Part shown: positions 946-23,844 of the stretch, in pieces
Layout: the number at the start of each line of letters is the position of its first letter
How positions within the stretch are numbered: position 1 is the first letter of the stretch
Assembly: GCA_016432445.1 (NCBI GenBank)
Contig: CP066689.1
Location: forward strand, 780,001 to 812,000
Length of the DNA stretch: 32,000 nucleotides
DNA from: Candidatus Saccharimonadota bacterium
GTDB taxonomy: Bacteria; Patescibacteriota; Microgenomatia; UBA1406; GWC2-37-13
Direction of reading: 5' to 3'
Translations under genes and position numbers: made by a program
Notes under the pieces: model-generated
What the model saw: only the letters and a program-made list of their open reading frames with translations
Told to the model about the DNA's origin: nothing
Database searches by the model: none

Positions 946-948
946 AAT

Positions 949-7833: not shown

Positions 7834-8706
7834 ATGAAATTACCTGGTCGGCTCATTGCTAAAGCAATCGAAGCTCGATTCAAAAAAGAAGTTAAAGCTC
7901 TCAAGAAAAAAGGCATAGTACCCTGTTTAGTTACCTTCCTTATCGGCGATTCTGCAGAACAGTTATCATTCGTCGCCATAAAACAAAAAACAGCTAAAAA
8001 ACTTGGAATTAAGTTTGAGTTTAGACATCTAAAAAAAACTCCATCATTTGAGGAGTTTGCCCATATTTTAAAAGAGTGTTCGCAAAATCCCAAAGTCACA
8101 GGCGTGCTTATCCAATTGCCTCTTCCACCAATGCTCGCCACAGACAGCATCTACAATTTTATTCCAATAGTCAAAGAAATCGAAGGCCATAAAGCTAAAA
8201 CCCCTTTTTTACCCCCCCTTGGACTTGCCGTTTTAACCATGATTAAATATACCTTTGGTACAGGAAAAATTAATCACGATCTGATTATTGATATGGAAAA
8301 AGACAAGATCTTTTTTAGAAATGTCTTAAAGCATAAAAAAATAATAGTTGTCGGCCGTGGTTTAACTGGAGGTCAACCAATAGGCAAAACTTTAAGTGAA
8401 CTTAAAATTAATTATTTAAGCATTAACTCGCATACCTATAGTCCGGAAGAGTATTATAAAGATGCCGATATTATCATCACTGCTGCCGGAACTACAGTTT
8501 TAAAACCTGAGTTTATCAAACCTGGAGTTATTCTTTTAAATGCAGGGCTTCATAAAGAAAATGGAACATTAGTTGGTGATTATTGCGAAAAAGAAATTGA
8601 AAAAATAGCTTCCCACTACTCAACTACACCCGGAGGCGTTGGTCCCCTTGATGTGCTTTATCTTTTCAACAACGTCATTCAAGCCGCCAAACTGCAAAAT
8701 TCTTGA
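7834..8706 (+). CDS. folD: methylenetetrahydrofolate dehydrogenase/methenyl-THF cyclohydrolase (divergent FolD)
   Basis: PCLVTFLIGDS, SFVAIKQKTAKKLGI (S..Y...K block with Phe in place of Tyr), VTGVLIQLPLP, VVGRG..GQP, TTPGGVGPLD. Length 290 aa, typical of FolD. Confidence 0.85.
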   Translation: MKLPGRLIAKAIEARFKKEVKALKKKGIVPCLVTFLIGDSAEQLSFVAIKQKTAKKLGIKFEFRHLKKTPSFEEFAHILKECSQNPKVTGVLIQLPLPPMLATDSIYNFIPIVKEIEGHKAKTPFLPPLGLAVLTMIKYTFGTGKINHDLIIDMEKDKIFFRNVLKHKKIIVVGRGLTGGQPIGKTLSELKINYLSINSHTYSPEEYYKDADIIITAAGTTVLKPEFIKPGVILLNAGLHKENGTLVGDYCEKEIEKIASHYSTTPGGVGPLDVLYLFNNVIQAAKLQNS

Positions 8707-9779: not shown

Positions 9780-10079
9780 ATGAAATACAAAAAAGTAATT
9801 GCTGAGATTGTAGAAATAGAAACTGGAACTACCTGCTCCGTTGGTCACAAAGTAGGAGAGAAATTTGTATTTGATGAAAATGGATTAATTGATAAAAATG
9901 CTTGTGTGGTTATGCTTAAATCAATCATGCTTCCGGTCAAAGCCCTTCTTAAAGGACAAGAATTGCCAGGGCACACTAAAGGAGAAGAAATTTATTGGGG
10001 CTGCCATCACCCTGGAGCAGAAACTATCTACAAAGGTATTGGACGCGTCATCTTCCGCCTCACCCCAGTAACAAAATAA
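9780..10079 (+). CDS. small Cys/His-containing protein, TIGR04076-like
   Basis: 99 aa. The pattern C..GH..G..F ... C ... I..C....G..V.F.L (TCSVGHKVGEKFVF ... ACVVML ... IYWGCHHPG ... GRVIFRL) matches my memory of the TIGR04076 family. No search was possible. Confidence 0.45.
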   Translation: MKYKKVIAEIVEIETGTTCSVGHKVGEKFVFDENGLIDKNACVVMLKSIMLPVKALLKGQELPGHTKGEEIYWGCHHPGAETIYKGIGRVIFRLTPVTK

Positions 10080-10235
10080 TTCTCCCCTTTGTCATTATAA
10101 TCTGCCATCCGTCGGAGAAGAATCCGGAAGTACTTGCAAACTTCGCTGTTTATTAATATAATTACTCTCCAGTAAATCAAAGTACAAGGCTCTAGATGGT
10201 TGTTTAATAATAAGGTTTAATAGTTTACTCAAACT

Positions 10236-10817
10236 ATGAAAAAAGACGAAGATATACTGCTGGGATCAAAAATTTTAAACTTAATCCAACCTCAATGTAA
10301 AAAGAATGTTTTAAAAGATACTCCAAAAAGATATATAAAAGCTTTAAAAGAACTTACTTCTTATAATACAAATAAGGATGATATTGATAAATATTTTGTC
10401 TTTTTTTCTTCATCTAGCAAAAACGGTTTGATAATAATCAAAAACATATTTTTCTCGAGCTTGTGTGAACATCATATCCTTCCTTACTTTGGATACATTA
10501 ATATTGGATACATTCCAAACGGAAAAATATTAGGACTTTCAAAATTCAGAAGAATTATTGACTGTTTTACAAAGAGATTATCTATTCAAGAAGAATTAAC
10601 TTATCAAATATTTGATCTTTTTAATACAAAACTAAGACCAAAGGCATTAATAATTACTGTTGAAGCTAAACATACTTGCAGCTTGGTTAGAGGAGTTAAA
10701 GAACAATTACTTACTATCAAAACAGTTAAAAAAAGCGATTATTTTAATAAAAATAAGGGGAGCCAAGATGAGTTTTTTTACGCAATTTCTAGTAATCATT
10801 TACAACTGGATAAATAA
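10236..10817 (+). CDS. folE: GTP cyclohydrolase I (FolE type)
   Basis: DTPKRYIKAL, SLCEHHILPYFG (zinc/catalytic Cys-x-His-His), GLSKFRRI, SIQEELTYQI, EAKHTCSLVRGV (second zinc Cys). 193 aa. Confidence 0.85.
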   Translation: MKKDEDILLGSKILNLIQPQCKKNVLKDTPKRYIKALKELTSYNTNKDDIDKYFVFFSSSSKNGLIIIKNIFFSSLCEHHILPYFGYINIGYIPNGKILGLSKFRRIIDCFTKRLSIQEELTYQIFDLFNTKLRPKALIITVEAKHTCSLVRGVKEQLLTIKTVKKSDYFNKNKGSQDEFFYAISSNHLQLDK

Positions 10818-12151
10818 TGGAAGTAATTCATTTTTATGATGTTTCCATAGGTCAAAAAATGGCTACATTATCGGGGGAGACTATGGATGTAGTGGATCTT
10901 TCAAGAAGAAAAAAATTAGAAGACCCAGTATTGTTCGAATCTAAAGGACTAATAGAAAAATTAGATAAATACGATTTTGATCCTATAGGTATTAAGCATT
11001 CTTCAAGATGGGAAAATATAATGGCGACGATGATTTTTTCTATATCAGACCAGATACCAAATAGAGAAGAAATTAAAAGGGGTAGACAAATAATAGAAAA
11101 ATTACCAAGACATCTAAAAGCAGACATCGACAGACAATTCGTGTTAACCTTCTTGCCTTATTTATTAACTGGTTTTAATTTTCATCTGGGAAAGTCTTTC
11201 GTAGCAAATGCTAATTTGATTGATAATAGTGTAAGTTTTATTGGAGAAGTATATAGAAATCCATTAGTAAATGCCTCTTCATTTTTATGTGCTCACAGAG
11301 AATCTTTTAAAGTAAAAACGTTAAGTTTAGTCGATCATGTTCACGAAAAAAAAGTTAAAAGAGTCTTAGGCCTAGAATTAGGTTTACTAGCAAATGCTTT
11401 AATTAAAACAATAAATATCGATTGGTATCAACAGACTGCAACTCCAAAAGCTTCTTCAAATATGTTTCCCGAAATATTCATTAATTATTTAAAAACAGGA
11501 AAGATAGGCGACCTTATGAAAACCATTGAAGCACACAGAGTTGAGATAGAAGGATTGATGTCAAAATATATTGGTCCAGATACTAATTTGAATTTAAAAC
11601 CTCTTGATACTTTTACCTCTCTTGTAGAGTCTTATTTAGACAATAGATATGGAGAAACATGGAGAGAGATGCAATCCTTCAGCAATGAGAATGACGCATT
11701 GGCAAAAATTGCTTACGAAATGACTCTTCCAGAAGTAACAAGATTAATGCCATTTTTTAAACAAGCAACTGAAGCAATAGTTGAACTTAATAGATATAAA
11801 TATTCGACCGTCACAACAAATCATGAAGAACAGAACTTAATAGCCGCAGTTATCGAATGGTTCCTTAAATGTCAAAAAATGACTAAATTCGGAAAGGCAC
11901 TTTATGAAACAGCTTTTTATTATCTTTGGGGCGCTCTTTCAGGAAATAATTCAATGGTAGGCATTGGTATAGATAGGGACCACGACAATTATCAATATTA
12001 TGCTTTTAGACAAGGATACAATGACAACAGACGAGATAAGACTACCCAAGAAGATAATATTCCGTTATTATATGCAAGAAGAAATGAAGAGGAAAAGCCA
12101 AAAGGACTTCTAAAAGATATCTCTTTTAGACAATTTTGGAGAGGTGAATAA
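10817..12151 (+). CDS. hypothetical protein (444 aa, apparently all-alpha, no recognised family)
   Basis: Long uninterrupted ORF. Its start overlaps the folE stop by 1 nt (TAATG), and it is co-directional within a tightly packed operon. No catalytic motif recognised. Confidence 0.65.
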   Translation: MEVIHFYDVSIGQKMATLSGETMDVVDLSRRKKLEDPVLFESKGLIEKLDKYDFDPIGIKHSSRWENIMATMIFSISDQIPNREEIKRGRQIIEKLPRHLKADIDRQFVLTFLPYLLTGFNFHLGKSFVANANLIDNSVSFIGEVYRNPLVNASSFLCAHRESFKVKTLSLVDHVHEKKVKRVLGLELGLLANALIKTINIDWYQQTATPKASSNMFPEIFINYLKTGKIGDLMKTIEAHRVEIEGLMSKYIGPDTNLNLKPLDTFTSLVESYLDNRYGETWREMQSFSNENDALAKIAYEMTLPEVTRLMPFFKQATEAIVELNRYKYSTVTTNHEEQNLIAAVIEWFLKCQKMTKFGKALYETAFYYLWGALSGNNSMVGIGIDRDHDNYQYYAFRQGYNDNRRDKTTQEDNIPLLYARRNEEEKPKGLLKDISFRQFWRGE

Positions 12152-12169
12152 TAATTAAGATAAAGTTAT

Positions 12170-14122
12170 ATGGAAACTTTAAGAAAAGATTCAATACAGC
12201 CAAAAAATTATAATCGCTCATTACTTTCATCATTGGCAACGGAAATTAGGATGTCAGTCTTTGACACTATAATCAATGCAAAAAGTGGGCATCTTGGCGG
12301 TAATTCTTCCTCTGTTGAGCTACTCACTTGTTTATATTTTGGAGGGATTTTAAAGTTTGACGTTAATAATCCTGAAAACATTAATAGAGATAGAGTTTTA
12401 ATTAGAGGTCATGAAGGACCAGTGAGATATAAAATATTTAGCCTTATGGGCTTATTCCCTGAGGAAGAATTAAAAACATACAGACAGTTCGGTTCAATAT
12501 TACAAGGGCATGAAGACATGCATACTACCCCAGGAGTAGATATCACTCCTTCAGGTTCATTGGGAATGGTTTTATCCTATGGGGTAGGCAGTGCAATAAC
12601 AGCTAAAGAAAATGACTTAGATTATAAAACCTTTGTCTTCCTTGGAGACGGAGAAGAGCAGGAAGGAAATGTAAGCGAAGCAGCAAGACACGCATCGAAT
12701 TTAGGTTTAGACAATTTAATATGTATTCTTGATAAAAACGATAAGCAATTATCTCGACCGACTATGGAATCTGATGGGGGAGCAAATATTGCAAAAATAT
12801 GGGAAGGATATGGATGGGATGTAATGGAAATAACAGACGGACATAATGTTGATGAGATAATGCGAGCGTATTTAAAACTAGATAAGATTAAAAAACCTAC
12901 CTTAGTTATTGCCCATACAATAAAAGGTAAAGGAATTCCTTATGCTGAAGACAACTATTGCGGCTATCATACTCTCAGTGTTTGCCCTAAAGAATTTGCT
13001 GATCAAGCGTTCAAGACGTCAACTGAGGAAGTCGAAAAACACTGGGAAGAAATAAGCACAGCAAAACTATTAGCTCCTGCATTAATTGCAAAACCAAGTG
13101 ATCCAGCTATTGGTTCAGATCGTGCTTTAACTCCAGAAATCGATATTGCCGTAAATCCGGAAGATGCAGCAAACCTGGATTATTCTCAAGGTTTCTATTT
13201 TAATAAACTTAATGAGTTAAGCGATAATGGAAAAAAAATGAAATTATATGTCTTAACTCCTGATTTTATAAGAAAAGATTTGGTAGAAATGGCTGCTTTC
13301 CCAAAATTTTCTAAGTTCATTGATACTGGAATTAGAGAACAACACGCAGTTGCCATGGCTCACGGGATATCCATATCTGATCCATCAGCTCGAATTTTTA
13401 TCAACTTTGGCGATGCCTTTATTTATAGAGCAATGGATCAATTAAATGCGGCCGCACAAGGTTCTAGCAAAATGTTTATAGTCGGTGAACACAGTGGATT
13501 AACCCAAGACCGAAACGGTAAGACACACCAAACAAGTGGTCAACCAGGTGCTCTAGTTCACATTCCTGGATTAATAGTAAAAGAACCATCAGATGTACAA
13601 GATTTATATAATGTATTTAATTGGGCTTTTACTAAGAATCCTGGAATAATATATGCGAGATTACATAGAAAAAATATAACACCTCTATATAGAGAAGAGA
13701 AAGACAAAAATAACATTAAATCCTATATTACTCATGAGCCCTGTAAGAAACCCTCTTTAGTTATTGTTAGTAGCGGCTTTACTACTCATAACGCAGTTAA
13801 AGCTGCTGAAATTCTTGAATGCGAATATGATATTCCAACTAGAGTGATCAATGTAATAGGACTCAATGAGCTGGATGAAGATTTTGTTCATTTACTTGAG
13901 CCAGATGTTCCTGTATTAACGGTATACAATGGATCAGGTAAAGTATTACAATCAATGGTCAGTTCTGCTGTCATGGAATCTACTTTTTTAAGACCAAGTG
14001 TTATAAGAGGTTATGGATTTGAGTTTGGAACTTCAGGTAGTTTAGAAGATTTAGAAAAGTATTATAAACTTGATAAACAAGGTATTGCTCAAACTGCAAA
14101 AAATTTATTCACCTACAAATGA
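12170..14122 (+). CDS. transketolase-family thiamine-diphosphate enzyme (fused N-terminal and C-terminal sections)
   Basis: SGHLGGNSSSVELLTCLYF, ThDP/Mg motif LGDGEEQEGNVSEAARHASNLGLDNLICILDKND, pyrimidine-binding half FIDTGIREQHAVAMAHGIS. The architecture resembles the split transketolase subunits fused into a single 650-aa chain. Confidence 0.8.
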   Translation: METLRKDSIQPKNYNRSLLSSLATEIRMSVFDTIINAKSGHLGGNSSSVELLTCLYFGGILKFDVNNPENINRDRVLIRGHEGPVRYKIFSLMGLFPEEELKTYRQFGSILQGHEDMHTTPGVDITPSGSLGMVLSYGVGSAITAKENDLDYKTFVFLGDGEEQEGNVSEAARHASNLGLDNLICILDKNDKQLSRPTMESDGGANIAKIWEGYGWDVMEITDGHNVDEIMRAYLKLDKIKKPTLVIAHTIKGKGIPYAEDNYCGYHTLSVCPKEFADQAFKTSTEEVEKHWEEISTAKLLAPALIAKPSDPAIGSDRALTPEIDIAVNPEDAANLDYSQGFYFNKLNELSDNGKKMKLYVLTPDFIRKDLVEMAAFPKFSKFIDTGIREQHAVAMAHGISISDPSARIFINFGDAFIYRAMDQLNAAAQGSSKMFIVGEHSGLTQDRNGKTHQTSGQPGALVHIPGLIVKEPSDVQDLYNVFNWAFTKNPGIIYARLHRKNITPLYREEKDKNNIKSYITHEPCKKPSLVIVSSGFTTHNAVKAAEILECEYDIPTRVINVIGLNELDEDFVHLLEPDVPVLTVYNGSGKVLQSMVSSAVMESTFLRPSVIRGYGFEFGTSGSLEDLEKYYKLDKQGIAQTAKNLFTYK

Positions 14123-14793
14123 AAAAAAAAGTCTTAATTATCGGAGGAAACTCAAAAATTGCCCGTACTTTTATTAAAAAATATAAAAACAAATATGATA
14201 TTGATGTCACGATACATGATGATAAGGAAGAACTTGTTAAAAATATAAATTACTTTTATCTAAACTTGGCAAACGTAACTGCTATCAAAAACTTAACTAT
14301 TAAATTGAAAAAATATAATTACGATGGAGTTTTATTCTTTGCTAGTGTTTATTCTATGAATGCCAATTATAAACAAGCCGAGTTCTTGAAGATTATTAAG
14401 ATTAATTTCTTAAGTTGTCTTAATTTAATCAGTAATTTAAAATTAAATAAAAATTCAAAGATAATTTTTTTTACGGATGAAGGTATAACTCAACCTAAAA
14501 ATAAACATTTTTTCTATTCTTTTTCAAAAGCGCTATTAGAAAACTACATTAGAATCTTGGCCGTAGATTTTGCACCACATACTTCTATAATTGGCATTGG
14601 CTTAGGTCCGATTATGACTGATAAAGATACTCTTTTAAAAAAAAAGTTTTATCTGAAAAGTCTTATTTCTATAAAAAATCCTTGCTCTGGTCTTATCAAG
14701 TTTATAAATTTTATACTCTCTGAAAAAAATTTTTATTTAACTGGAAAGATTATTCCTTTTGACGGCGGAGCATATATTAACAGATTAAATTGA
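14119..14793 (+). CDS. short-chain dehydrogenase/reductase family protein
   Basis: N-terminal Rossmann turn KVLIIGGNSKIARTF, catalytic YSFSK (YxxxK), then IGIGLGPIMT (resembles the PG motif region). The ATGA start overlaps the preceding stop. Confidence 0.6.
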   Translation: MKKKVLIIGGNSKIARTFIKKYKNKYDIDVTIHDDKEELVKNINYFYLNLANVTAIKNLTIKLKKYNYDGVLFFASVYSMNANYKQAEFLKIIKINFLSCLNLISNLKLNKNSKIIFFTDEGITQPKNKHFFYSFSKALLENYIRILAVDFAPHTSIIGIGLGPIMTDKDTLLKKKFYLKSLISIKNPCSGLIKFINFILSEKNFYLTGKIIPFDGGAYINRLN

Positions 14794-14794
14794 T

Positions 14795-15403
14795 ATGAGA
14801 AATAATTTATTCTTAATCCCGGGTTTAACAACGCATGCGAAAAATTTTCTTGTAAATGCACTTAATGATTACTATTCTAAATATGACAATTATCACTATA
14901 TATTGTTAAGCTTTCATAAAAAAAATAGACATCCTTCAAACAAACTCAAAACCGAATGTATAGAATTAGCTAAGAAAATAAAGCTCGTATCAAGTACCAA
15001 TGAAAAAAATATAGTAATTGCAAAATCGTTGGGAGGAGTCATAGCAACTACGGCGTTAAAATTGAGCAAAACAATACAAATAGATAAATTAATCATACTA
15101 GGGTTACCTATAGTTTTAGGCTATCCTCCCAATATTAATTTACTGAAAGATAACTCTCCTTTTTCAAATTATGTTAGTGAATACATTGATTTATTCAAGA
15201 ATCTTAAAAATAAAGAAATTCATATTATTCAAGGTAACGAAGACGATTTATGTCCAATAGATGATTTATTAAAAATCACCTTAGATTATAAGAACATAAA
15301 AATACATGTTATCAAAGGTGGAAATCATGATTTTGATTGTTGTAAAAAAACAGAATATAAAAATTTATTTAAGATCATTGAAGATAAAATCAATCTAATA
15401 TGA
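14795..15403 (+). CDS. alpha/beta-fold hydrolase
   Basis: Nucleophile elbow IAKSLGG, acidic IIQGNEDDLCP, C-terminal GGNHDF. These fit a Ser-Asp-His triad in the usual order. 202 aa. Confidence 0.5.
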   Translation: MRNNLFLIPGLTTHAKNFLVNALNDYYSKYDNYHYILLSFHKKNRHPSNKLKTECIELAKKIKLVSSTNEKNIVIAKSLGGVIATTALKLSKTIQIDKLIILGLPIVLGYPPNINLLKDNSPFSNYVSEYIDLFKNLKNKEIHIIQGNEDDLCPIDDLLKITLDYKNIKIHVIKGGNHDFDCCKKTEYKNLFKIIEDKINLI

Positions 15404-15891
15404 GTAAAAGAAATATTGTGTTAAGTCTAGAATGCTTCGTTCAAAAAAATGGCAAATACTTGATGCTTCACCGCAATAAAAATAAAAAAATAATGCCAGG
15501 AGTGTGGATGGCTCCTGGTGGAAAAAGAGAATTTAACGAAGGATTATTTGAAGCAGCAAGAAGAGAAATTAAAGAAGAAACAGGCCTTGAAATAAAAAAT
15601 CTGAGAATTAAAGCTACAGGGAATGCATATCTTAAGGATGTAAATCAAGAACTATACTTTCATTTCATTTTTGCAGACTACGCTGGCGGCAAAGTTAAAC
15701 AAAATTCTGAAGAGGATGGTACGCTGGTTTGGATGTTTCCTGAAGATATAGTTAAACTAGATAATTTACTTTCAGAAATAAAAGAGATATATCGTTATAT
15801 TTTTACCAAAAATAATAAAGTAATTTCTTATAAAGCAGTATACGAAAAAGGTAATAAAATGGTTTTTTTTGAATTAGAGAAACCATTATAA
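15400..15891 (+). CDS. Nudix (MutT-family) hydrolase, paralog of 460-945
   Basis: Nudix box GGKREFNEGLFEAARREIKEETGL. By my hand alignment about 70% aa identity to the ORF at 460-945 over the full length. The ATGA start overlaps the preceding stop. Confidence 0.85.
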   Translation: MSKRNIVLSLECFVQKNGKYLMLHRNKNKKIMPGVWMAPGGKREFNEGLFEAARREIKEETGLEIKNLRIKATGNAYLKDVNQELYFHFIFADYAGGKVKQNSEEDGTLVWMFPEDIVKLDNLLSEIKEIYRYIFTKNNKVISYKAVYEKGNKMVFFELEKPL

Positions 15892-16270: not shown

Positions 16271-17008
16271 TTAACTTTCTTTTGAAGGATGGGGTTGACC
16301 TTCAATTCCTCGGGGAGGCACCCCAAGTCTGGTAATTACTTCCTTTGAAGGAAGATTGAAAAAATCGCCAATCTCTAGATCTATCTGACTACTCATTTTT
16401 TTGCCTTTTAGGATTTGAGCTACTTCCTCATCATTTGGAGCATTAACTAATCTATCGCAAAGTTCATATATTATGCTGTCTTCAATTAAGTTTCGTCTAT
16501 CCACTTTCGGATAAGACGACTCTAACCCTAAATTACTTAACCATTCCGCTCTTGGTATCACCTGCCCAGTCCTCATGCATTCTCCCAACCACAAAAGCAT
16601 GATATTGCCGTCATTCCCCTTAAACCAATATTCTCCACCCAAGTCCTGTAAATCTTTAAGATATTTTCCCTCCCCAAAATGCGGAAAATTAATTTCGTTT
16701 GATGAAACTGTTACTAGATTAAGGTTTGGAAATTCACTTTTTCTTTCAAGCAAAGACTTTGCCAACTCAAGCCCCCTTGTTTTTGAAGGAGAAGTAGTAT
16801 TATCTAAAATAACAAATGTAGGCCTGTCCATTTTTTTCTCTAAAAATTTTGCAGCAGCATCTAACTGTAGAAAATGTGTAATATTTTCTTTCGGTATCCC
16901 AATCAAATGACGCATACCCGCAATGATTTTTGGATATACGTGCACTGAATCTTCAGCATAAACAATTTGTATATCTTTTAAAGAAGCAACCGGACTAAAT
17001 TGTCTCAT
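16271..17008 (-). CDS. hypothetical protein with CheY-like receiver-type N-terminal pattern
   Basis: IQIVYAEDS ... FVILDNTTS...GLELAKSLL...NLNLVTVSS follows the beta-alpha spacing of receiver domains (acidic pair, ILD phospho-acceptor position, G-LE-L helix). The C-terminal 120 aa or so are unassigned. The domain call is tentative. Confidence 0.4.
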   Translation of the reverse strand: MRQFSPVASLKDIQIVYAEDSVHVYPKIIAGMRHLIGIPKENITHFLQLDAAAKFLEKKMDRPTFVILDNTTSPSKTRGLELAKSLLERKSEFPNLNLVTVSSNEINFPHFGEGKYLKDLQDLGGEYWFKGNDGNIMLLWLGECMRTGQVIPRAEWLSNLGLESSYPKVDRRNLIEDSIIYELCDRLVNAPNDEEVAQILKGKKMSSQIDLEIGDFFNLPSKEVITRLGVPPRGIEGQPHPSKES

Positions 17009-17030
17009 AGAATAAAGTCATTATAACAAC

Positions 17031-17279
17031 CTAATTATCGATTTTCAATTTTATGGCAGTCACTTCATGATACATAAGAACATCAACATCCAAAAATACC
17101 GGCTCAATCTCTTTTTGGGAAGAAGCCTCAATAAATTCCTGTCCTGAATTATATAAAGATTTTGGATCAGATGGGGGAGAGTCAGCATGAGCCAAACGGG
17201 GCAAATTAAGAGAAGCCATAAGCATCACCCCCGCCGCCGCATGGGCTACCTTTTTAATAACAGTCCTCTCAACATTCAT
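17031..17279 (-). CDS. hypothetical small secreted protein (82 aa)
   Basis: N-terminal signal-like segment KKVAHAAAGVMLMASLNLPRLAHA. It lies 22 nt upstream of the next minus-strand ORF, and a promoter candidate sits directly upstream. Confidence 0.45.
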   Translation of the reverse strand: MNVERTVIKKVAHAAAGVMLMASLNLPRLAHADSPPSDPKSLYNSGQEFIEASSQKEIEPVFLDVDVLMYHEVTAIKLKIDN

Positions 17280-17296
17280 AAATCAAAAGTACGGCC

Positions 17297-17325
17297 ATCT
17301 TAACCAATCCCCCTCTAAATGTCAA
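17297..17325 (-). promoter_or_regulatory. sigma70-like promoter TTGACA-17 nt-TAAGAT
   Basis: The minus strand reads TTGACAtttagagggggattggtTAAGAT. The -10 ends 17 nt before the ATG at 17279, which implies a very short leader. Confidence 0.4.
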
Positions 17326-17478
17326 ATTCCATCAGATTGAAAAAATAGACATAAGTAGTATACTTCAGATATGAAGATGTAAATTATACTCACATCTTTA
17401 TTTATTAGTTCTTTCTTCTTAGTATTAAAAAAGTGAAAATGCTACTTTTATTTGAATCAAAAACTCTAGCAAAAAAAT

Positions 17479-18918
17479 ATGAGACTTTCTGAGTACTTTA
17501 AATTAAATAAAACACAATTTGAACTTGATTTTATAGATATACCTTTAAATACAGATATACCTTTATTCGTAGATCCATACGCAATATCAACAAGAATCGA
17601 TCTATTTTCAATGGAGTGTGCTCAGATCATAATAAATTTTTTTCAAAGTGTTATTGATGATATAAAAAATAATAATGATAACAATGCTAAATATAAATTA
17701 AATTATCTTAATGAACTTAATGATACTCACTTAGGTCTTTCTCATAACAAACCTCGAGGAAAAGGGGTAAGTGGAGAACAGTCAATAGAGTTATTTGAAG
17801 CATTAAAAAAAAGTAAAGCTGCAATATCAGGGTTGCTTAACGATCTGTCGGATTGTGAATTATTAATACCAGGTATTAGTAGAGATAAAATTTCTGATAT
17901 TACAACTAATATTATAAAAACAAAGTTGATTGAATATACCCAACAGCAATGTATTACTTATAATATTCAAACTTATAAAGTTTCTTCAGGTAAACTCTGG
18001 AATCCAGTTGATGGCAAATGGGAATCTGGTCGGTATGTTGATTTGCCCATTTATAAAAATACGAGAATTATATTAATCCCTAAAGTGTTGGTAAGATATT
18101 CTTTAGTATACAATCATAAAAAGTATTACAACAATTTCGTTCTTGAATATTTACAAGAAGAAAATATTAGCACTAATACCTCTCTTGTGAGGTTATTAAA
18201 AAATGGAAAAAGTGTTGTATATAAGAAAGATTTAAAAGCCGATGATAGATATAAGCTTACTAAAGAATTCTTGTTTAATTTTTCTCTAGAACACCCCGAT
18301 ATATTAGAAAATTATACTAAATCTCTACCTAATAATTTACCTCCCTTATCAAATGAAGACATTGAAAAAAAGCAAACAGAATCAAAAAGTTTTGATTACG
18401 ATTCGCTTATAAATAAACTAAAGAGTATATCTCCTGGCACAAAAACCGCAACTGAATACCATAATCTTATGGTGGGTATATTAGAAATAATTTTCTATCC
18501 AAATTTAATAATCCCTATAAAACAAGAATTTATTCATAACGGAAGGAAAATAATCGATATTACTTATACTAATGCAGCAAAAAATGGTTTTTTTGAATAT
18601 CTCGCGAAACATATAGCTTGTCTTTTTGTAATATGTGAATGTAAAAATTATAAAGATGATCCGACGAATCCAGAACTTGATCAATTATCAGGAAGATTTT
18701 CACCGAATAGAGGAAAATTTGGTATCCTGCTCTGTAGGACAATCGAGAATAAAGATTTATTTTTTAAAAGATGTCAAGATACTGCAAATGATGATAGAGG
18801 TTTCATTATTCCTTTAGATGATGATGATATTATCAAACTACTTGAATACCGTAGCATTAATGACATTATAGCAATTGATGACTTTTTTACATTAAAATAT
18901 AAAAAATTAGTGATGTAA
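17479..18918 (+). CDS. hypothetical protein with C-terminal PD-(D/E)xK (restriction-endonuclease-like) motif
   Basis: C-terminal GRKIIDITYT ... LFVICECKNY ... ELDQLSGRF ... FGILLCRT has the D...ExK spacing and flanking hydrophobic strands typical of Mrr/restriction-endonuclease-fold cores. The N-terminal 340 aa or so (FELDFIDIPLNTDIPLFVDPYAIS...) are unassigned. Confidence 0.55.
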   Translation: MRLSEYFKLNKTQFELDFIDIPLNTDIPLFVDPYAISTRIDLFSMECAQIIINFFQSVIDDIKNNNDNNAKYKLNYLNELNDTHLGLSHNKPRGKGVSGEQSIELFEALKKSKAAISGLLNDLSDCELLIPGISRDKISDITTNIIKTKLIEYTQQQCITYNIQTYKVSSGKLWNPVDGKWESGRYVDLPIYKNTRIILIPKVLVRYSLVYNHKKYYNNFVLEYLQEENISTNTSLVRLLKNGKSVVYKKDLKADDRYKLTKEFLFNFSLEHPDILENYTKSLPNNLPPLSNEDIEKKQTESKSFDYDSLINKLKSISPGTKTATEYHNLMVGILEIIFYPNLIIPIKQEFIHNGRKIIDITYTNAAKNGFFEYLAKHIACLFVICECKNYKDDPTNPELDQLSGRFSPNRGKFGILLCRTIENKDLFFKRCQDTANDDRGFIIPLDDDDIIKLLEYRSINDIIAIDDFFTLKYKKLVM

Positions 18919-18983
18919 GTTTGAAGTAAAACACAGTGTAAAACAAGCTTTATTATCAGATCCACAAAGAGTAATATTAAATC

Positions 18984-20393
18984 ATGGAATGGCTAATACT
19001 TTTCGGAGCTGGATGGGTTATTTATACAATTGTGAATAAATTTAATGGCAAATCAGAAGCCAAAAATAATAATTACCCTCTTCCACAACATACTTATACT
19101 CCTAAACCTCGACTCAATGTAAAACACATTGATGTATCTGATATAAAACTAAGTTCTGAGCAACAAGAATTATTCAACAAACTCGAAAATACTAAGAATC
19201 ATATTTTTATAACTGGAAAAGCTGGAACAGGTAAATCATTATTACTACAATATTTCAGACAACATTCCTCTAAACGTTTAGTCGTTGTTGCTCCAACTGG
19301 TGTTGCTGCACTTAACGTAAATGGACAAACAATACACTCACTTTTTAAAATTAGGCCAGGCTTTAATTCAAAAGAAAACTTACGTATAAATTCAAAGACA
19401 GCATTACTATTAAAAAATATTGATGCAGTTGTAATTGATGAGATATCAATGGTTCGCGCCGACTTAATAGATTCCATTGATTATATTTTAAAAAGAGCTC
19501 GATTGAATGATGACCCTTTTGGAGGAGTACAAATGATTATGTTCGGAGATTTATATCAATTACCTCCTGTAGTAGAAAGTGCTGAATTACATAAGTACTT
19601 TGCAGATAATCATGGAGGTTTTTATTTTTTTAATGGACATGCTTGGAAAAATGTTCCACTTGAGATAACGGAACTAAAAACTATATTCAGACAAAAGGAC
19701 GAGGATTTTAAAAATATCCTTAACTCCATTCGTACAGGTCAAATGGATGTCAATTTACTAGACCAGCTTAATCAAAGAGTAAAAATTGAAATTCCATCTA
19801 ATGGCGTAATAACACTTGCAACCACCAATCAATCAGTTAATGAAATAAACGAGAAACAACTTTCACAACTTGAAGAAAAAATATTCGAGTATAAAGCTAC
19901 GATCATAGGAGATCTTAGACCACCTTATCCAACAGAAGAAACATTACATTTAAAGAAAGGCGCCCAAGTAATGTTAATGAAAAACGATAAAGAAAAACGC
20001 TGGGTAAATGGCACTCTTGGATATATTGAGTCTCTTGCTGATAAAGAAATTAAAGCAAATATTGATGGTATTGTATATTCTGTTCCTCAAGAAACTTGGA
20101 ACAAAATAAATTATTACTACAATAGGGAAACACGTAAAATCGAAGAAGAAGTAATAAGTTCATTTACGCAATTTCCTTTAAGACTTGCGTGGGCAATAAC
20201 AGTTCATAAATCACAAGGTCAGACATATGGTTCAGTCGTCGTTGACATGGGTGATGGAGCATTTGCTCATGGTCAAACTTATGTTGCGCTAAGCCGATGT
20301 AAAAGCTTAGATGGTCTATACCTTAAAAGAGAACTACTTCACCAAGACATAATTGTAGATCCTTCAATCATTACTTTCATGAATAAAACGTAA
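18984..20393 (+). CDS. Pif1-family SF1 helicase with hydrophobic N-terminal segment
   Basis: Walker A GKAGTGKS, Walker B VVIDEISMV, Pif1 signature block DSIDYILKRARLNDDPFGGVQMIMFGDLYQLPPV, ITVHKSQGQTY, YVALSRCKS. The first 20 aa or so (MEWLILFGAGWVIYTIVNKF) are hydrophobic. Confidence 0.85.
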   Translation: MEWLILFGAGWVIYTIVNKFNGKSEAKNNNYPLPQHTYTPKPRLNVKHIDVSDIKLSSEQQELFNKLENTKNHIFITGKAGTGKSLLLQYFRQHSSKRLVVVAPTGVAALNVNGQTIHSLFKIRPGFNSKENLRINSKTALLLKNIDAVVIDEISMVRADLIDSIDYILKRARLNDDPFGGVQMIMFGDLYQLPPVVESAELHKYFADNHGGFYFFNGHAWKNVPLEITELKTIFRQKDEDFKNILNSIRTGQMDVNLLDQLNQRVKIEIPSNGVITLATTNQSVNEINEKQLSQLEEKIFEYKATIIGDLRPPYPTEETLHLKKGAQVMLMKNDKEKRWVNGTLGYIESLADKEIKANIDGIVYSVPQETWNKINYYYNRETRKIEEEVISSFTQFPLRLAWAITVHKSQGQTYGSVVVDMGDGAFAHGQTYVALSRCKSLDGLYLKRELLHQDIIVDPSIITFMNKT

Positions 20394-20411
20394 TAGATCA
20401 AATAAAAAAAT

Positions 20412-21548
20412 CTATGAGATAGATTCTGATTTACCGATGAGGAGATTGATGTCTAAACCTGCAGTGGAGGATTGGAAGAATGTATCAATTTCATCAATCC
20501 TTTCATAAGAAAGGAAATGGACTTTTTTATCAAAATCTATCTCTCTAAAAGTTGGTCTTTTTACTTGTTCAAAAACCTTATGTTTTTTTAATTGAGGTGC
20601 AACAATAAATAGGGGATAGTTACTATTTGGAGCAACAATTTTTAAATCTGCGAATCTAAGTAGTCCTGAATAAATAGCTGTTGAATTTTCTATTTCAAAA
20701 GCAGCATCAATACGAAATTCCTCTTTCCAAACAACATCGATATTTTCAACATATTTTGCGTTAATATCAATACCTGCAGTAAATTCTTTTTCAAAATCAT
20801 TAAACTGAAATTCTTCCCTTAATTTTTTTTGATCGTTTTTTGGTACCCAGACTTTCGATCCAGTTTTAATTCCCAGCAATGCCAATTTGTGCTGCATTTT
20901 TACATGATCAGAAAGTTCTTTAATTGTTTCTTCATTTTCTTCAATTTCTTCCACTATTTTTTTTACTTCTTCAATATTTTCAATTTGTTTTTTTTCAACC
21001 TTTTCGCCCTTTTTTATTCTAAGAAGAATTTCGTAAAGATCATCATATTTTGAATAAAAATCTAAAATCCTGTCATCAGAAATGTTAGTCAAACCTCTTA
21101 GTTGCCATTCTTTTTTGTAACCAAAAAGGTCTTTTAAGATATCAAAAGGTAAACCTATTTCTACAGGATTTGCAATGAAATAAATTAACTCCCATGGCTC
21201 CATCGAATCTCCTTTTATATTTTTCCACAGTTCTTTTGAAAGATTGATATTAATATCAGTTGTTGCAATTTTACCCATCAACTTAATCGTATTTCCTTCG
21301 ATAATAAAAATATCATCGCCAGCTTTCATTTTGTCAAATTTTTGTCTATTTGCGTCGCCACCTCTTGATCCCCAAACTGCTATTGATTTTAATCCGAAAA
21401 CTCTTTTTAAATTTTCTCGAAGATTCGTATCAACATACTTAAAAATTTTCTCTTGTGAAACTTTATTCACAATTGTATCTTCATAGTGAACCAAAGCTTC
21501 ATAGTTACCTTTTGGAATATAAACAATAAATATTTTTTTTTGAAACAT
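20412..21548 (-). CDS. hypothetical two-domain protein, possible reader-domain + nuclease (type IV restriction-like)
   Basis: The N-terminal pattern IAVWGSRGG...FDKMKAGDDIFIIEGNTIKLMGKI is reminiscent of PUA-like (EVE/ASCH-type) barrels. A Glu/Lys-rich linker follows. The C-terminal HKLALLGIKTGSKVWVP ... NIDVVWKEEFRIDAAFEIENSTAIYSGLLRFADL has a D...E.E nuclease-core-like arrangement. All of this is inference from patterns. Confidence 0.4.
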   Translation of the reverse strand: MFQKKIFIVYIPKGNYEALVHYEDTIVNKVSQEKIFKYVDTNLRENLKRVFGLKSIAVWGSRGGDANRQKFDKMKAGDDIFIIEGNTIKLMGKIATTDININLSKELWKNIKGDSMEPWELIYFIANPVEIGLPFDILKDLFGYKKEWQLRGLTNISDDRILDFYSKYDDLYEILLRIKKGEKVEKKQIENIEEVKKIVEEIEENEETIKELSDHVKMQHKLALLGIKTGSKVWVPKNDQKKLREEFQFNDFEKEFTAGIDINAKYVENIDVVWKEEFRIDAAFEIENSTAIYSGLLRFADLKIVAPNSNYPLFIVAPQLKKHKVFEQVKRPTFREIDFDKKVHFLSYERIDEIDTFFQSSTAGLDINLLIGKSESIS

Positions 21549-21605
21549 AGCCTTATTCTATCAGATACTTGACTTTTGTTGAGGATTATAGTCTACTTAT
21601 ATCAG

Positions 21606-21890
21606 ATGAAAAAAATAATTTTGGCCTTTCTTTTCTTAATAGTTTCTACATTTTTAGTCTCAAACGTCAATGTAGAAGCACGAAACACAACTATTCGTTC
21701 TTATTCGAGTTCATCCCGCAATGTATACAAATACACAACTCCAAGGAACCAAATTTATGTACCCAAAACTCAAACTGTTAAACCATACTTCAAAAGTAAT
21801 GGCACTTACGTTCCCAGTTATCAGAGAGCTCCTTACGGTAGTTTAAAACCTTACTACGCACCTGGCTATCCTCAAAAAAAAATCAAATAA
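21606..21890 (+). CDS. hypothetical small secreted Tyr/Pro-rich protein
   Basis: Start moved to MKKIILAFLFLIVSTFLVSNVNVEA (signal-peptide-like). The mature part is rich in Y, P, K and S. Confidence 0.5.
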   Translation: MKKIILAFLFLIVSTFLVSNVNVEARNTTIRSYSSSSRNVYKYTTPRNQIYVPKTQTVKPYFKSNGTYVPSYQRAPYGSLKPYYAPGYPQKKIK

Positions 21891-21931
21891 ATTTTTCTTT
21901 AAGTTGATATGTTGATTAAAAATCTTCAACT

Positions 21932-23838: not shown

Positions 23839-23844
23839 AGTACA

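What the first reader, a model, noticed from the sequence alone, without database searches (positions are those of the whole stretch)
10236..15891. Six-gene translationally coupled operon built around GTP cyclohydrolase I but lacking every canonical downstream pterin, folate or queuosine enzyme
Seen: six co-directional ORFs with junctions TAATG (1-nt overlap, 10815-10819), an 18-nt gap (12152-12169), ATGA (14119-14122), TGAtATG (14791-14797) and ATGA (15400-15403). That arrangement is one tightly coupled operon, and its sequence is visibly more AT-rich than gyrB, gyrA or lepA. Gene 1 retains the GCH-I zinc/catalytic residues (CEHH, HTC). Established: the GCH-I product dihydroneopterin triphosphate is dephosphorylated by a Nudix enzyme (NudB) in folate synthesis, and SDRs (FolM, PTR1, sepiapterin reductase) reduce pterins. 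Inference: folE + Nudix + SDR looks like a pterin-making core. None of the usual followers (FolB/FolK/FolP, PTPS/QueD, QueC/QueE) is present in the operon or in this window. Their place is taken by a fused transketolase-type ThDP enzyme, an alpha/beta hydrolase and a 444-aa protein with no recognisable family. A ThDP enzyme that moves 2-carbon ketol units, sitting next to genes that make a pterin with a 3-carbon side chain, suggests an undescribed side-chain remodelling route or another GTP-derived small molecule. The operon adjoins a defence-type island, so a role in nucleotide or base modification cannot be excluded.
Basis: partly seen in the sequence, partly recalled or inferred. Interest (0 to 1): 0.75.

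Follow-up and report, generated by a model that had tools for sequence, protein, structure and literature searches.

The report
Undescribed pterin-making operon in Patescibacteria
A six-gene operon in a tiny-genome groundwater bacterium (Candidatus Roizmanbacteria) most likely turns GTP into a reduced pterin cofactor by an undescribed route, whose central enzyme has a confidently predicted structure unlike any solved one.

Summary
Six co-directional, overlapping or near-abutting genes lie at 10236-15891, with every junction as reported and a lower GC than the flanks (0.31 against 0.37-0.42).

The genes are:
- a catalytically intact GTP cyclohydrolase I;
- a 444-aa orphan;
- a transketolase-like ThDP enzyme;
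- an SDR;
- an α/β-hydrolase (Abhydrolase_11);
- a Nudix hydrolase.

The SDR carries the Asp-Tyr-Lys triad of pteridine reductase PTR1, conserved in 11 of 11 orthologues.

The orphan matches no sequence family. Its model is confident (pLDDT 93) yet has no structural relative (best TM about 0.25). It occurs only in Patescibacteria.

Across 19 distinct contexts it sits near GCH-I in 12 and near a pterin-type reductase in 13. The conserved core is therefore GCH-I, orphan and reductase.

TK+hydrolase is one of three interchangeable accessory modules. The TK family keeps its cofactor and catalytic residues but not the sugar-phosphate site. It is also more widespread than the orphan.

Best reading: a lineage-specific tetrahydropterin pathway with a new enzyme. 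The product and the steps catalysed by the orphan and the TK-like enzyme are unknown. I found no support for a defence role and no published description.

The parts
10134..10162 (+). Candidate operon promoter (TTGCAA-17-TATAAT), about 75 nt upstream of the first start codon
   Evidence: Consensus scan, 10 of 12 matches. This is a pattern match only, and promoter-like sites are not enriched over shuffles in this AT-rich region. No Rfam family or riboswitch matches the leader.
10236..10817 (+). GTP cyclohydrolase I (193 aa), predicted to convert GTP to 7,8-dihydroneopterin triphosphate
   Evidence: PF01227 at 2e-48, 164.6 bits. The best PDB match is Thermus GCH-I at 1e-33. C77/H80/C148 align with its zinc ligands C108/H111/C179, and the Gln-Glu pair (Q118/E119) is kept. 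It scores below the NCBIfam FolE equivalog cut-offs (144.7 against 181.6).
10817..12151 (+). Orphan enzyme (444 aa), the signature gene of the cluster, with no known family or fold
   Evidence: It has no Pfam, NCBIfam, PADLOC or PDB sequence hit. The AlphaFold model has pLDDT 93 and pTM 0.93. Foldseek finds no match at E<=1e-3 in PDB or BFVD, with best TM about 0.25. There are 126 representative relatives among 1.84 billion proteins; every member whose source is named is Patescibacterial. Across the deepest divergences C158 and R438 are invariant, and N133, P218, R309, R421, F120, Y224, Y368, Y419, D388 and E364 are nearly so.
12170..14122 (+). Transketolase-like ThDP enzyme (650 aa, fused three-domain type)
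   Evidence: It has Transketolase_N, Transket_pyr and Transketolase_C domains. Its best PDB relatives are the short human and split-chain TKs at about 1e-47. In 41 of 41 family members the cofactor and catalytic residues are invariant (H41, H81, H114, D160, N190, H267, E390, H453). The four sugar-phosphate ligands of canonical TK are not conserved, and the Asp of human D424 is an invariant Asn (N449). NCBIfam transketolase scores 288 bits against a cut-off of 488.
14119..14793 (+). PTR1/FolM-like short-chain reductase (224 aa), predicted to reduce the pterin ring
   Evidence: adh_short_C2 scores 33 bits. The two best NCBIfam hits are dihydromonapterin reductase (1.9e-13) and pteridine reductase (2.1e-12), both far below cut-off. 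D120/Y133/K137 align with PTR1 D181/Y194/K198 (the triad is documented in PMC8996148). The triad is kept in 11 of 11 orthologues. The family has only 9 clusters; the three named by a source are Patescibacterial.
14795..15403 (+). α/β-hydrolase of the Abhydrolase_11 family (202 aa), the constant partner of the TK-like gene
   Evidence: PF20408 at 7e-13. The Ser-Asp-His triad (AKSxG ... D ... H) is conserved in 9 of 9 orthologues, including those next to TK genes in loci without the orphan. It is adjacent to TK in every type-A locus and in L015 and L016.
15400..15891 (+). Nudix hydrolase (163 aa), predicted to remove pyrophosphate from dihydroneopterin triphosphate
   Evidence: PF00293 at 2e-16. 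The Nudix box GKREFNEGLFEAARREIKEETG is intact. The hit to the NudB family is weak (29 bits against a cut-off of 103). A Nudix gene also accompanies the cluster in L001. It is replaced by a His-phosphatase or a pyrophosphatase-like gene in other lineages.

Best explanation
The operon is a Patescibacteria-specific pathway that converts GTP into a reduced (tetrahydro) pterin by an undescribed route.

Steps supported by homology and intact catalytic residues:
1. GCH-I opens and re-closes GTP to give 7,8-dihydroneopterin triphosphate.
2. The Asp-Tyr-Lys SDR reduces a pterin ring with NAD(P)H, as PTR1 and FolM do.

Inferred steps:
3. The Nudix enzyme strips pyrophosphate from the triphosphate, in the manner of NudB.
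4. The 444-aa orphan acts between GCH-I and the reductase on the anionic pterin intermediate. Three invariant arginines would hold phosphate, conserved aromatic residues would stack on the ring, and the invariant Cys158 would serve as catalytic base or nucleophile. By position in the pathway it takes the place that PTPS, FolX or FolB occupy in known routes.
5. The TK-like ThDP enzyme, with its Ser-Asp-His hydrolase partner, forms an accessory tailoring module. It has lost the sugar-phosphate site. It may remove or add a two-carbon ketol unit on the three-carbon side chain, for instance by cleaving a 2'-oxo isomer to a 6-formyl or 6-hydroxymethyl pterin.

Other lineages replace this module with an M42-like or S51 hydrolase, so the side chain or conjugate probably differs between lineages.
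For: The six genes form one coupled unit.

GCH-I has its zinc ligands and substrate-binding Glu.

The SDR has the PTR1 triad by direct alignment, conserved in 11 of 11 orthologues. Its top two NCBIfam hits among 48 are both pterin reductases.

In type-C clusters the SDR is replaced by a RibD_C/DHFR-fold reductase. From established knowledge, the one substrate class that PTR1-type SDRs and DHFR-fold enzymes share is dihydropterins and folates.

The phosphatase role is filled by Nudix, a His-phosphatase or a pyrophosphatase-like gene in different lineages. That is what one expects if the role, not the protein, is conserved.

Across 19 distinct contexts the orphan is within 10 kb of GCH-I in 12 and of a reductase in 13. 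Order and strand are shuffled between Microgenomates, Parcubacteria and Gracilibacteria.

The orphan's invariant residues are Cys, three Arg, Asn and aromatics.

For the TK-like family, cofactor residues are invariant, the phosphate site is lost and Asp is replaced by an invariant Asn. It was never seen next to pentose-phosphate genes in eight contexts. A complete Microgenomates genome has separate, plural transketolase genes in an operon with aldolase (PMC7143001).

There is a precedent for pteridine genes working with a ThDP E1-like enzyme in the pepteridine cluster (PMC5384830).
Against: No step has biochemical support, and the product is unknown.

The orphan's role rests only on gene context and residue conservation. 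It could use the pterin, not make it.

The SDR, Nudix and GCH-I all score below the NCBIfam equivalog cut-offs.

The TK-like family is much larger than the orphan family (540 hits against 72), and it occurs alone among housekeeping genes. It therefore has a function independent of the pterin genes. Basic residues elsewhere in it (R368/K, R389, R497) might rebuild a phosphate site.

Orphan loci L004, L010 and L012 have no GCH-I or reductase within 8-9 kb.

An α/β-hydrolase has no obvious job in known pterin chemistry.

I could not check whether the rest of the 1.1-Mb genome encodes FolB/K/P, PTPS or any pterin-dependent enzyme.
Confidence: 0.55

Rival explanations
1. Cofactor-supply model. The orphan is itself a tetrahydropterin-dependent enzyme. 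GCH-I, Nudix and the SDR exist only to make and regenerate its cofactor (tetrahydroneopterin or tetrahydromonapterin type). The variable neighbours (TK+hydrolase, M42, S51) belong to the pathway that the orphan serves.
For: GCH-I + Nudix or phosphatase + FolM-like reductase is already enough to make a tetrahydropterin without any extra enzyme; this follows from the established E. coli tetrahydromonapterin route. The orphan's immediate downstream neighbour is always a non-pterin enzyme (TK, M42-like or S51). A long orphan relative pairs with an M42 peptidase and has no GCH-I nearby. Dihydropteridine reductase, which recycles the cofactor, is also an SDR (established knowledge).
Against: No known pterin-dependent enzyme resembles the orphan. 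It has no 2-His-1-carboxylate pattern among its invariant residues. Three invariant Arg fit a phosphorylated substrate better than a neutral cofactor. These organisms are mostly anaerobic fermenters (PMC7143001), where pterin-dependent oxygenases would be unexpected.
Confidence: 0.15
2. Non-canonical folate branch. The orphan and the TK-like enzyme replace dihydroneopterin aldolase (FolB), producing 6-hydroxymethyl-dihydropterin that feeds a folate-type one-carbon carrier. The SDR or DHFR-fold enzyme acts as the dihydrofolate or dihydropterin reductase.
For: FolD, a tetrahydrofolate-dependent enzyme, lies two genes upstream (7834-8706), so the organism uses a folate-type cofactor. No FolB/K/P is in the window. 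From established knowledge, PTR1 and FolM enzymes are known DHFR bypasses. A kinase (APH-like) accompanies the orphan in three lineages and could stand in for the FolK step. The FolB by-product is glycolaldehyde, the very unit that ThDP carries in transketolases. A TK without a phosphate site would suit non-phosphorylated substrates.
Against: No DHPS-like, FolC-like or pABA-forming gene occurs in any of the ~40 loci examined. Type-B and type-C clusters lack the TK altogether, so the orphan alone would have to do the cleavage there. The linkage to FolD is seen only in this window. Salvage of folate from a host is the usual assumption for these bacteria (my background knowledge; not checked here).
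Confidence: 0.15
3. Hitch-hiker model for the ThDP enzyme. The 650-aa protein is simply the lineage's own divergent pentose-phosphate transketolase, placed in the operon without any chemical role in the pterin route. The pterin pathway proper is then GCH-I + orphan + SDR + Nudix.
For: The family is large, about 50% identical across Patescibacterial classes including Saccharibacteria, and JGI annotates it as transketolase. It stands alone among housekeeping genes in L038-L040. All catalytic and cofactor residues are intact. The Gracilibacteria and type-C clusters work without it.
Against: The orphan-TK adjacency, often with overlapping or near-abutting reading frames, recurs in both Microgenomates and Parcubacteria (10 loci). 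The canonical phosphate ligands are not conserved, and the universally conserved Asp is an invariant Asn. It falls far below every NCBIfam transketolase cut-off, and NCBI records name members only hypothetical protein, DXS, or DXS-domain-containing protein, never transketolase. It is never next to Rpe, Rpi or Tal. A complete Microgenomates genome has separate, plural transketolase genes with aldolase.
Confidence: 0.2
4. Defence or nucleic-acid modification system. The operon makes a GTP-derived base or nucleotide analogue for DNA or RNA modification, or for antiviral signalling, as part of the adjacent low-GC defence island.
For: The operon borders a low-GC stretch (about 16-25 kb) holding a PDC-M36A-like gene, a PIF1 helicase, a type II restriction-like nuclease, RhuM and KilA-N. 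The operon itself is low in GC. The Nudix gives a generic hit to PADLOC candidate PDC-S07.
Against: There is no QueC/D/E, DpdA/TGT or other base-exchange enzyme in the window. No PADLOC model hits the other five proteins. The orphan and TK are absent from 2.9 million viral contigs. In other genomes the cluster sits among tRNA synthetases, ribosomal and other housekeeping genes, not defence genes. The PTR1-type reductase points to a free pterin.
Confidence: 0.03

Closest known systems
Tetrahydromonapterin pathway of E. coli and Pseudomonas (FolE, FolX, phosphatases, FolM)
   Same: It starts with GCH-I, needs dephosphorylation of dihydroneopterin triphosphate, and ends with an SDR-type dihydropterin reductase. 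FolM is the best NCBIfam hit of the window's SDR.
   Different: There is no FolX (a T-fold epimerase). Instead there is a 444-aa protein of unknown fold, plus a ThDP enzyme and an α/β-hydrolase that have no counterpart. The SDR scores far below the FolM cut-off (50 bits against 249).
Tetrahydrobiopterin pathway (GCH-I, 6-pyruvoyl-tetrahydropterin synthase, sepiapterin reductase)
   Same: It has the three-step logic of cyclohydrolase, side-chain-transforming enzyme and SDR reductase, exactly the gene order GCH-I, orphan..., SDR seen in Gracilibacteria. Like PTPS (as I recall, a catalytic Cys acting on a triphosphate substrate), the orphan has an invariant Cys, and its three invariant Arg would suit a phosphate group.
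   Different: The orphan is about 3.5 times the size of PTPS and unrelated in sequence and predicted fold. A true PTPS gene coexists with the orphan in one Nomurabacteria locus, so it is not a simple replacement. The SDR has the PTR1-type Asp in place of the usual Ser.
Pteridine reductase PTR1 of trypanosomatids
   Same: It is an SDR with the Asp-Tyr-Lys triad at identical spacing (D120/Y133/K137 against D181/Y194/K198).
   Different: Only the C-terminal half aligns significantly (E about 7e-4). The glycine-rich cofactor motif is atypical (GGNSKIA). PTR1 is a salvage enzyme, not part of a GTP-based operon.
Pepteridine biosynthetic cluster of Photorhabdus (plu2792-2799)
   Same: It is the one documented case where pteridine genes (GCH-I, PTPS, pteridine reductase) are clustered with a ThDP-dependent E1-like enzyme that decorates the pterin (PMC5384830).
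   Different: That system uses a pyruvate-dehydrogenase-type E1/E2 with NRPS-like T and C domains to acylate the pterin. Here the ThDP enzyme is of the transketolase type, there is no E2 or carrier protein, and PTPS and the pyrophosphokinase are absent.
Transketolase (EC 2.2.1.1), short human or split-chain type
   Same: It has the same three-domain architecture, ThDP and metal site, activating Glu and catalytic histidines.
   Different: The four sugar-phosphate ligands (human R318, S345, H416, R474) are not conserved, and D424 is an invariant Asn. It is always paired with an Abhydrolase_11 gene when clustered, and never seen with pentose-phosphate genes.

Membership tests
GTP cyclohydrolase I (FolE, PF01227) | Pfam domain above the gathering score over its full length | tested here: met
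   164.6 bits against 27, covering profile positions 7-178 of 179.
GTP cyclohydrolase I (FolE, PF01227) | Zinc ligands Cys/His/Cys and the guanine-binding Gln-Glu | tested here: met
   C77/H80/C148 align with Thermus C108/H111/C179, and Q118/E119 are kept.
GTP cyclohydrolase I (FolE, PF01227) | NCBIfam FolE equivalog cut-off | tested here: not met
   TIGR00063 scores 144.7 bits against 181.6; NF006825 scores 153.3 against 174. It is a divergent member. Orthologues in L001 and L002 score higher on Pfam (211-220 bits).
Transketolase (EC 2.2.1.1) | Three domains with the ThDP/metal motif (GDG...N), activating Glu and catalytic His residues | tested here: met
   invariant in 41 of 41 family members.
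Transketolase (EC 2.2.1.1) | Sugar-phosphate binding residues (human R318, S345, H416, R474) | tested here: not met
   The window protein has N335, K369, H441 and R500. Across the family these positions are mostly N, variable, variable, and R in 20 of 41.
Transketolase (EC 2.2.1.1) | Conserved Asp that binds the substrate C2-hydroxyl (human D424, yeast D477) | tested here: not met
   Asn in 41 of 41.
Transketolase (EC 2.2.1.1) | NCBIfam transketolase equivalog cut-off | tested here: not met
   The best model, NF004559, scores 288 bits against 488.
Pteridine reductase / dihydromonapterin reductase (PTR1, FolM) | SDR fold with Asp replacing the catalytic Ser (Asp-Tyr-Lys triad) | tested here: met
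   D120/Y133/K137 align with PTR1 D181/Y194/K198 (PMC8996148), and the triad is kept in 11 of 11 orthologues.
Pteridine reductase / dihydromonapterin reductase (PTR1, FolM) | NCBIfam equivalog cut-off | tested here: not met
   FolM scores 50.3 bits against 249; pteridine reductase scores 47.1 against 288.
Pteridine reductase / dihydromonapterin reductase (PTR1, FolM) | NADPH-dependent reduction of a dihydropterin | not testable with these tools
   This needs an enzyme assay.
NudB (dihydroneopterin triphosphate diphosphatase) | Nudix box | tested here: met
   GKREFNEGLFEAARREIKEETG at residue 41.
NudB (dihydroneopterin triphosphate diphosphatase) | NudB equivalog score | tested here: not met
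   NF006961 scores 29.3 bits against 103, and other Nudix subfamilies score higher.
Canonical folate pterin branch (FolE-FolB-FolK-FolP) | FolB, FolK and FolP genes present | tested here: not met
   None is present in the operon or the window. The rest of the genome could not be examined.
Queuosine / 7-deazaguanine pathway | QueD, QueE and QueC following FolE | tested here: not met
   None is present in the window. A PTPS/QueD-family gene lies beside the orphan only in L004.
Known anti-phage defence systems (PADLOC) | Match of the component proteins to a defence-system model | tested here: not met
   Only the Nudix hits a generic candidate model (PDC-S07); the other five have no hit. Neither the orphan nor the TK is on viral contigs.
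Pepteridine-type hybrid pteridine cluster | E1/E2 dehydrogenase-like genes fused to NRPS T and C domains, plus PTPS and a pyrophosphokinase | tested here: not met
   No E2, T, C, PTPS or HPPK domain is in the operon. Only the general idea of pteridine genes plus a ThDP enzyme is shared.

The most novel reading that the evidence does not exclude
The 444-aa protein founds a new enzyme fold that catalyses a pterin transformation not known from any organism. Together with the phosphate-site-less transketolase-like enzyme it would make a new pterin, possibly a lineage-specific cofactor of Patescibacteria or a non-canonical entry into folate-type one-carbon carriers. This would mean these minimal, supposedly cofactor-scavenging bacteria synthesise a cofactor of their own.
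Probability: 0.35. Interest if true: 0.8.

Novelty: new variant of a known kind. Interest (0 to 1): 0.68.

Why it matters
Patescibacteria (the Candidate Phyla Radiation) are a large share of bacterial diversity. They are thought to lack most cofactor biosynthesis and to depend on hosts. A conserved, multi-gene investment in turning GTP into a pterin would be an exception, and it would point to a cofactor need that is not yet understood.

The orphan is a well-defined experimental target. It has a confident structure model with no known relative, an invariant Cys and three invariant Arg, and it is always linked to pterin genes. It offers a new enzyme fold and probably new pterin chemistry.

There is also a practical consequence. 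The transketolase-like family is widespread in these genomes and is annotated as transketolase or DXS in public records, yet it lacks the sugar-phosphate site. Metabolic reconstructions that count it as the pentose-phosphate transketolase may be wrong.

Tried and rejected
1. Assigning the orphan to a family. Pfam, NCBIfam, PADLOC, phmmer against PDB, a 45-sequence profile against PDB, Foldseek against PDB and BFVD, and Pfam scans of ten distant or long relatives all came back empty. The weak Foldseek hits to tyrosyl-tRNA synthetase (probability 0.87, TM 0.24-0.31) and to TIM-barrel enzymes (TM about 0.15) are too poor to use.

2. The 513-aa gene after the TK in L016 and the 172-aa gene in L015 as hidden orphan homologues. 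hhalign rejected this. Their N-termini are Abhydrolase_11-like instead.

3. A riboswitch or other RNA in the 156-nt leader that might name the ligand. There was no Rfam hit even at E<=5, and folding was no better than for shuffled sequence.

4. A tRNA or integrase marking the low-GC stretch as an integrated island. No tRNA was found.

5. The upstream 99-aa TIGR04076-family ORF as a seventh operon member. It is not found in any related locus.

6. A viral origin. Neither the orphan nor the TK is in IMG/VR.

7. Literature. Six full-text searches found no paper that describes this cluster or links Patescibacteria with pterin synthesis.

8. Pocket analysis of the model. Model coordinates are not exposed to scripts.

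9. Checking the rest of the genome for folB/K/P, PTPS or pterin-dependent enzymes.

Full report
**What is there**

The window comes from a Candidatus Roizmanbacteria (Patescibacteria, or CPR) metagenome-assembled genome. The orphan and the TK-like protein are 100% identical to proteins HYW86_04195 and HYW86_04200, on a contig of 1.10 Mb.

Six + strand ORFs occupy 10236-15891. A sigma-70-like site (TTGCAA-17-TATAAT) lies at 10134-10162, and the next gene downstream is convergent. The six genes therefore form one unit.

Operon GC is 0.309, against 0.37-0.42 for gyrB, gyrA, folD, miaA and lepA. The operon sits at the left edge of a low-GC stretch of about 15 kb (10.2-25.2 kb) that also holds defence-type genes.

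**The five recognisable proteins all look catalytically competent**

- *Gene 1* is GTP cyclohydrolase I (PF01227, 2e-48). C77/H80/C148 align with the zinc ligands C108/H111/C179 of the Thermus enzyme, and the Gln-Glu pair is kept. It is divergent, scoring below the NCBIfam FolE cut-offs.
- *Gene 3* has all three transketolase domains and most resembles the short human and split-chain transketolases.
- *Gene 4* is an SDR. Its two best NCBIfam hits out of 48 are dihydromonapterin reductase (FolM) and pteridine reductase.
- *Gene 5* is an Abhydrolase_11 protein with a conserved Ser-Asp-His triad.
- *Gene 6* is a Nudix hydrolase with an intact Nudix box.

**The SDR is a pterin-type reductase**

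In the alignment to Leishmania PTR1 (2xox), D120, Y133 and K137 fall exactly on D181, Y194 and K198. These form the PTR1 catalytic triad, in which Asp replaces the usual SDR Ser (PMC8996148). The triad is present in all 11 orthologues I could collect, from Microgenomates to Gracilibacteria.

The family is tiny. The word-indexed search found 9 clusters; the three that a source names are Patescibacterial. It is therefore dedicated to this cluster.

**The orphan**

The 444-aa protein has no hit in Pfam, NCBIfam, PADLOC or PDB sequences, either as a single sequence or as a 45-sequence profile.

AlphaFold2 with that alignment gives a confident α/β model with pLDDT 93 and pTM 0.93. Foldseek nevertheless finds nothing at E<=1e-3 in the PDB or in BFVD, and the best TM-scores are about 0.25.

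A full HMMER scan of 1.84 billion representative proteins finds only 126 relatives. These include a long form (489-644 aa) that shares the motifs SxLCA(H/Q), DxDH and YAR. None of the ten distant or long relatives scanned has a Pfam domain.

Across the deepest divergences C158 and R438 are invariant. N133, P218, R309, R421, F120, Y224, Y368, Y419, D388 and E364 are nearly so. One cysteine, three arginines and a set of aromatic residues is what one would expect for an enzyme that holds a phosphorylated, ring-shaped substrate and uses a Cys as base or nucleophile. This is inference.

**Gene context decides the question of chance**

I collected about 40 loci and mapped 16 seed families onto 37 of them plus the window by tblastn. 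Three architectures recur.

- *Type A* (this window; Woesebacteria, Shapirobacteria and related MAGs; several Parcubacteria): Abhydrolase_11, orphan, TK-like and SDR, with GCH-I and Nudix alongside. Order and strand differ from the window. In L001 and L002, for example, the hydrolase comes first and GCH-I and Nudix are on the opposite strand.
- *Type B* (Gracilibacteria and relatives, genetic code 25): GCH-I, orphan, an M42-like protein, the same SDR and a small protein.
- *Type C*: a His-phosphatase, a RibD_C/DHFR-fold reductase, GCH-I and an APH-like kinase, divergent from the orphan and an S51 peptidase-like gene.

In 19 distinct orphan contexts, GCH-I lies within 10 kb in 12 and a reductase in 13. 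Several of the exceptions are truncated contigs. For single-copy genes in genomes of about 1000 genes this cannot be chance.

The constant set is orphan + GCH-I + reductase. The phosphatase role is filled by different proteins (Nudix, a His-phosphatase, a pyrophosphatase-like gene). The reductase role is filled either by the PTR1-type SDR or by a DHFR-fold protein. From established knowledge, PTR1 and DHFR share only dihydropterins and folates as substrates. These non-orthologous replacements argue that the roles, and hence a pterin pathway, are what is conserved.

I mapped the functional residues of human transketolase through the HMMER alignment and scored them in a 41-member family alignment.

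- Invariant: the cofactor and catalytic positions (H37, H77, H110, the GDG...N metal site, H258, E366, and the position of Q428, which here is His).
- Not conserved: the four ligands of the substrate phosphate. R318 is mostly Asn, S345 and H416 are variable, and R474 is Arg in only 20 of 41.
- Changed: the Asp that binds the substrate C2-hydroxyl (D424) is Asn in 41 of 41.

The protein also misses every NCBIfam transketolase cut-off (288 bits against 488). In the eight contexts seen it is never next to pentose-phosphate genes. A complete Microgenomates genome is reported to have plural "transketolase genes" in an operon with aldolase, which is the split housekeeping type (PMC7143001).

Against a dedicated pterin role:
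- The family is much bigger than the orphan family: 540 hits at E<1e-20, about 50% identical across classes, including Saccharibacteria.
- It occurs with Abhydrolase_11, S51 and Nudix genes but no orphan in L015 and L016.
- It stands alone among housekeeping genes in L038-L040.

My reading is that TK + Abhydrolase_11 is a semi-independent module recruited to the pterin core in Microgenomates and Parcubacteria. It is neither the heart of the pathway nor a mere bystander. I hold this with moderate confidence only.

**Most likely mechanism**

Supported by homology and residues:
1. GTP is converted to dihydroneopterin triphosphate by GCH-I.
2. A pterin ring is reduced by the Asp-Tyr-Lys SDR.

Inferred:
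3. The Nudix enzyme removes pyrophosphate, as NudB does.
4. The orphan transforms the (phospho)pterin between these steps, taking the position held by PTPS, FolX or FolB in known routes.
5. The ThDP enzyme acts on the non-phosphorylated three-carbon side chain. One chemically coherent possibility runs as follows. An internal redox and ketol shift gives a 1'-hydroxy-2'-oxo-3'-hydroxypropyl side chain. That is formally a transketolase donor (HOCH2-CO-CHOH-R). Cleavage would leave a 6-formyl-tetrahydropterin, which is the tautomer of 6-hydroxymethyl-dihydropterin. This is speculation that fits the loss of the phosphate site, and nothing here tests it.

**Rivals**

- The orphan may be a pterin-dependent enzyme whose cofactor the other genes supply.
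- The operon may be a FolB-bypass feeding a folate-type carrier. FolD lies two genes upstream.
- The TK may be a hitch-hiking housekeeping enzyme.
- A defence or base-modification role has little support. There is no PADLOC system, no deazaguanine genes, no viral copies, and the cluster sits in housekeeping neighbourhoods in other genomes.

**Comparison with known systems**

The nearest known systems are:
- the FolE-FolX-FolM tetrahydromonapterin route;
- the GCH-I-PTPS-SR tetrahydrobiopterin route;
- PTR1;
- the Photorhabdus pepteridine cluster, as the one precedent for pteridine genes working with a ThDP enzyme (PMC5384830).

The present operon fails the membership tests for each. It has no FolX, PTPS, FolB/K/P or QueC/D/E, and no E2 or NRPS parts. 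Six full-text searches found no description of this gene set, nor any paper linking Patescibacteria to pterin synthesis.

**Verdict**

- The pathway's signature is the orphan, not the transketolase.
- The defence idea is unsupported.

I rate it a new variant of a known kind: a pterin biosynthetic cluster with a new central enzyme of unknown fold and unusual accessory enzymes. The main limits are the lack of any biochemical evidence and my inability to inspect the rest of the genome.

Noticed in passing
window 7834-8706 (+): FolD (methylene-tetrahydrofolate dehydrogenase/cyclohydrolase) lies two genes upstream of the operon. The organism therefore uses a folate-type one-carbon carrier, yet no folate pterin-branch gene is in the window.
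   Followed up: partly
window 3142-5187 (+): A membrane H+-translocating pyrophosphatase (PF03030, 858 bits) is inserted between gyrB and gyrA.
   Followed up: no
window 16271-25171: This is a low-GC stretch (0.28-0.33) of accessory and defence-type genes. It holds a PDC-M36A-like protein (17479-18918; PADLOC 6.6e-49), a PIF1/RecD-like helicase (18984-20393), a type II restriction-like nuclease (20412-21548, - strand), RhuM (21984-22931), a KilA-N protein (23014-23838), a Ser_hydrolase (23845-24372, - strand) and a DUF7718 protein (24761-25171, - strand). No tRNA or integrase marks its borders.
   Followed up: partly
window 9780-10079 (+): A 99-aa Cys-rich ORF of the TIGR04076 family (38 bits against a cut-off of 33) sits between miaA and the operon. 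It is not found in any related locus, so it is probably not part of the unit.
   Followed up: yes
window 28744-29178 (+): A TspO/MBR-family protein (a tetrapyrrole-binding membrane protein in other organisms) is present, which is unexpected in a minimal-genome bacterium.
   Followed up: no
window 460-1005 (-): A second, unrelated Nudix hydrolase gene lies at the left end of the window. Nudix genes also recur near the TK-like gene in L015 and L016.
   Followed up: no
L006-L009, L013, L031, L032, L035 (e.g. L007 7394-11284): This is the type-B version of the cluster in Gracilibacteria-like genomes that read UGA as a sense codon: GCH-I, orphan, a 260-aa M42-like protein (weak; E 9e-4), the same Asp-Tyr-Lys SDR and a small unknown protein. 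It has no TK-like gene.
   Followed up: partly
L014/L022, L020 (e.g. L014 6433-11068): This is the type-C version: a His-phosphatase, a RibD_C/DHFR-fold reductase, GCH-I and an APH-like kinase, divergent from the orphan and an S51 (PepE-like) gene. The reductase's best NCBIfam hit is an archaeal riboflavin-pathway pyrimidine reductase (42 bits, far below cut-off), so a ring-opened pyrimidine substrate cannot be excluded.
   Followed up: partly
L017/L018 9001-11926: A long (644-aa) distant relative of the orphan is followed directly by a full-length Peptidase_M42 gene, with no GCH-I within 9 kb. The orphan-M42 pairing therefore extends beyond the pterin clusters.
   Followed up: partly
L016 9935-11476; L015 9977-10495: The gene after the TK-like gene is an Abhydrolase_11 homologue. 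In L016 it is fused to a C-terminal region of about 340 aa with no known domain, which is not an orphan homologue by hhalign. An S51 peptidase-like gene lies next to the TK in both loci.
   Followed up: partly
TK-like family generally (P0183-P0302; window 12170-14122): This widespread Patescibacterial family is labelled 'transketolase' by JGI and 'DXS' or 'DXS N-terminal domain-containing' by NCBI. It lacks the canonical sugar-phosphate ligands and has Asn for the conserved Asp. Pentose-phosphate pathway calls in CPR genomes that rest on this gene deserve re-examination.
   Followed up: partly
L001 (contig MEQB01000048.1): A 7.7-kb contig carrying a type-A cluster (61% identical orphan) is binned as 'Bdellovibrionales bacterium'. 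The gene content suggests a mis-binned Patescibacterial contig.
   Followed up: no
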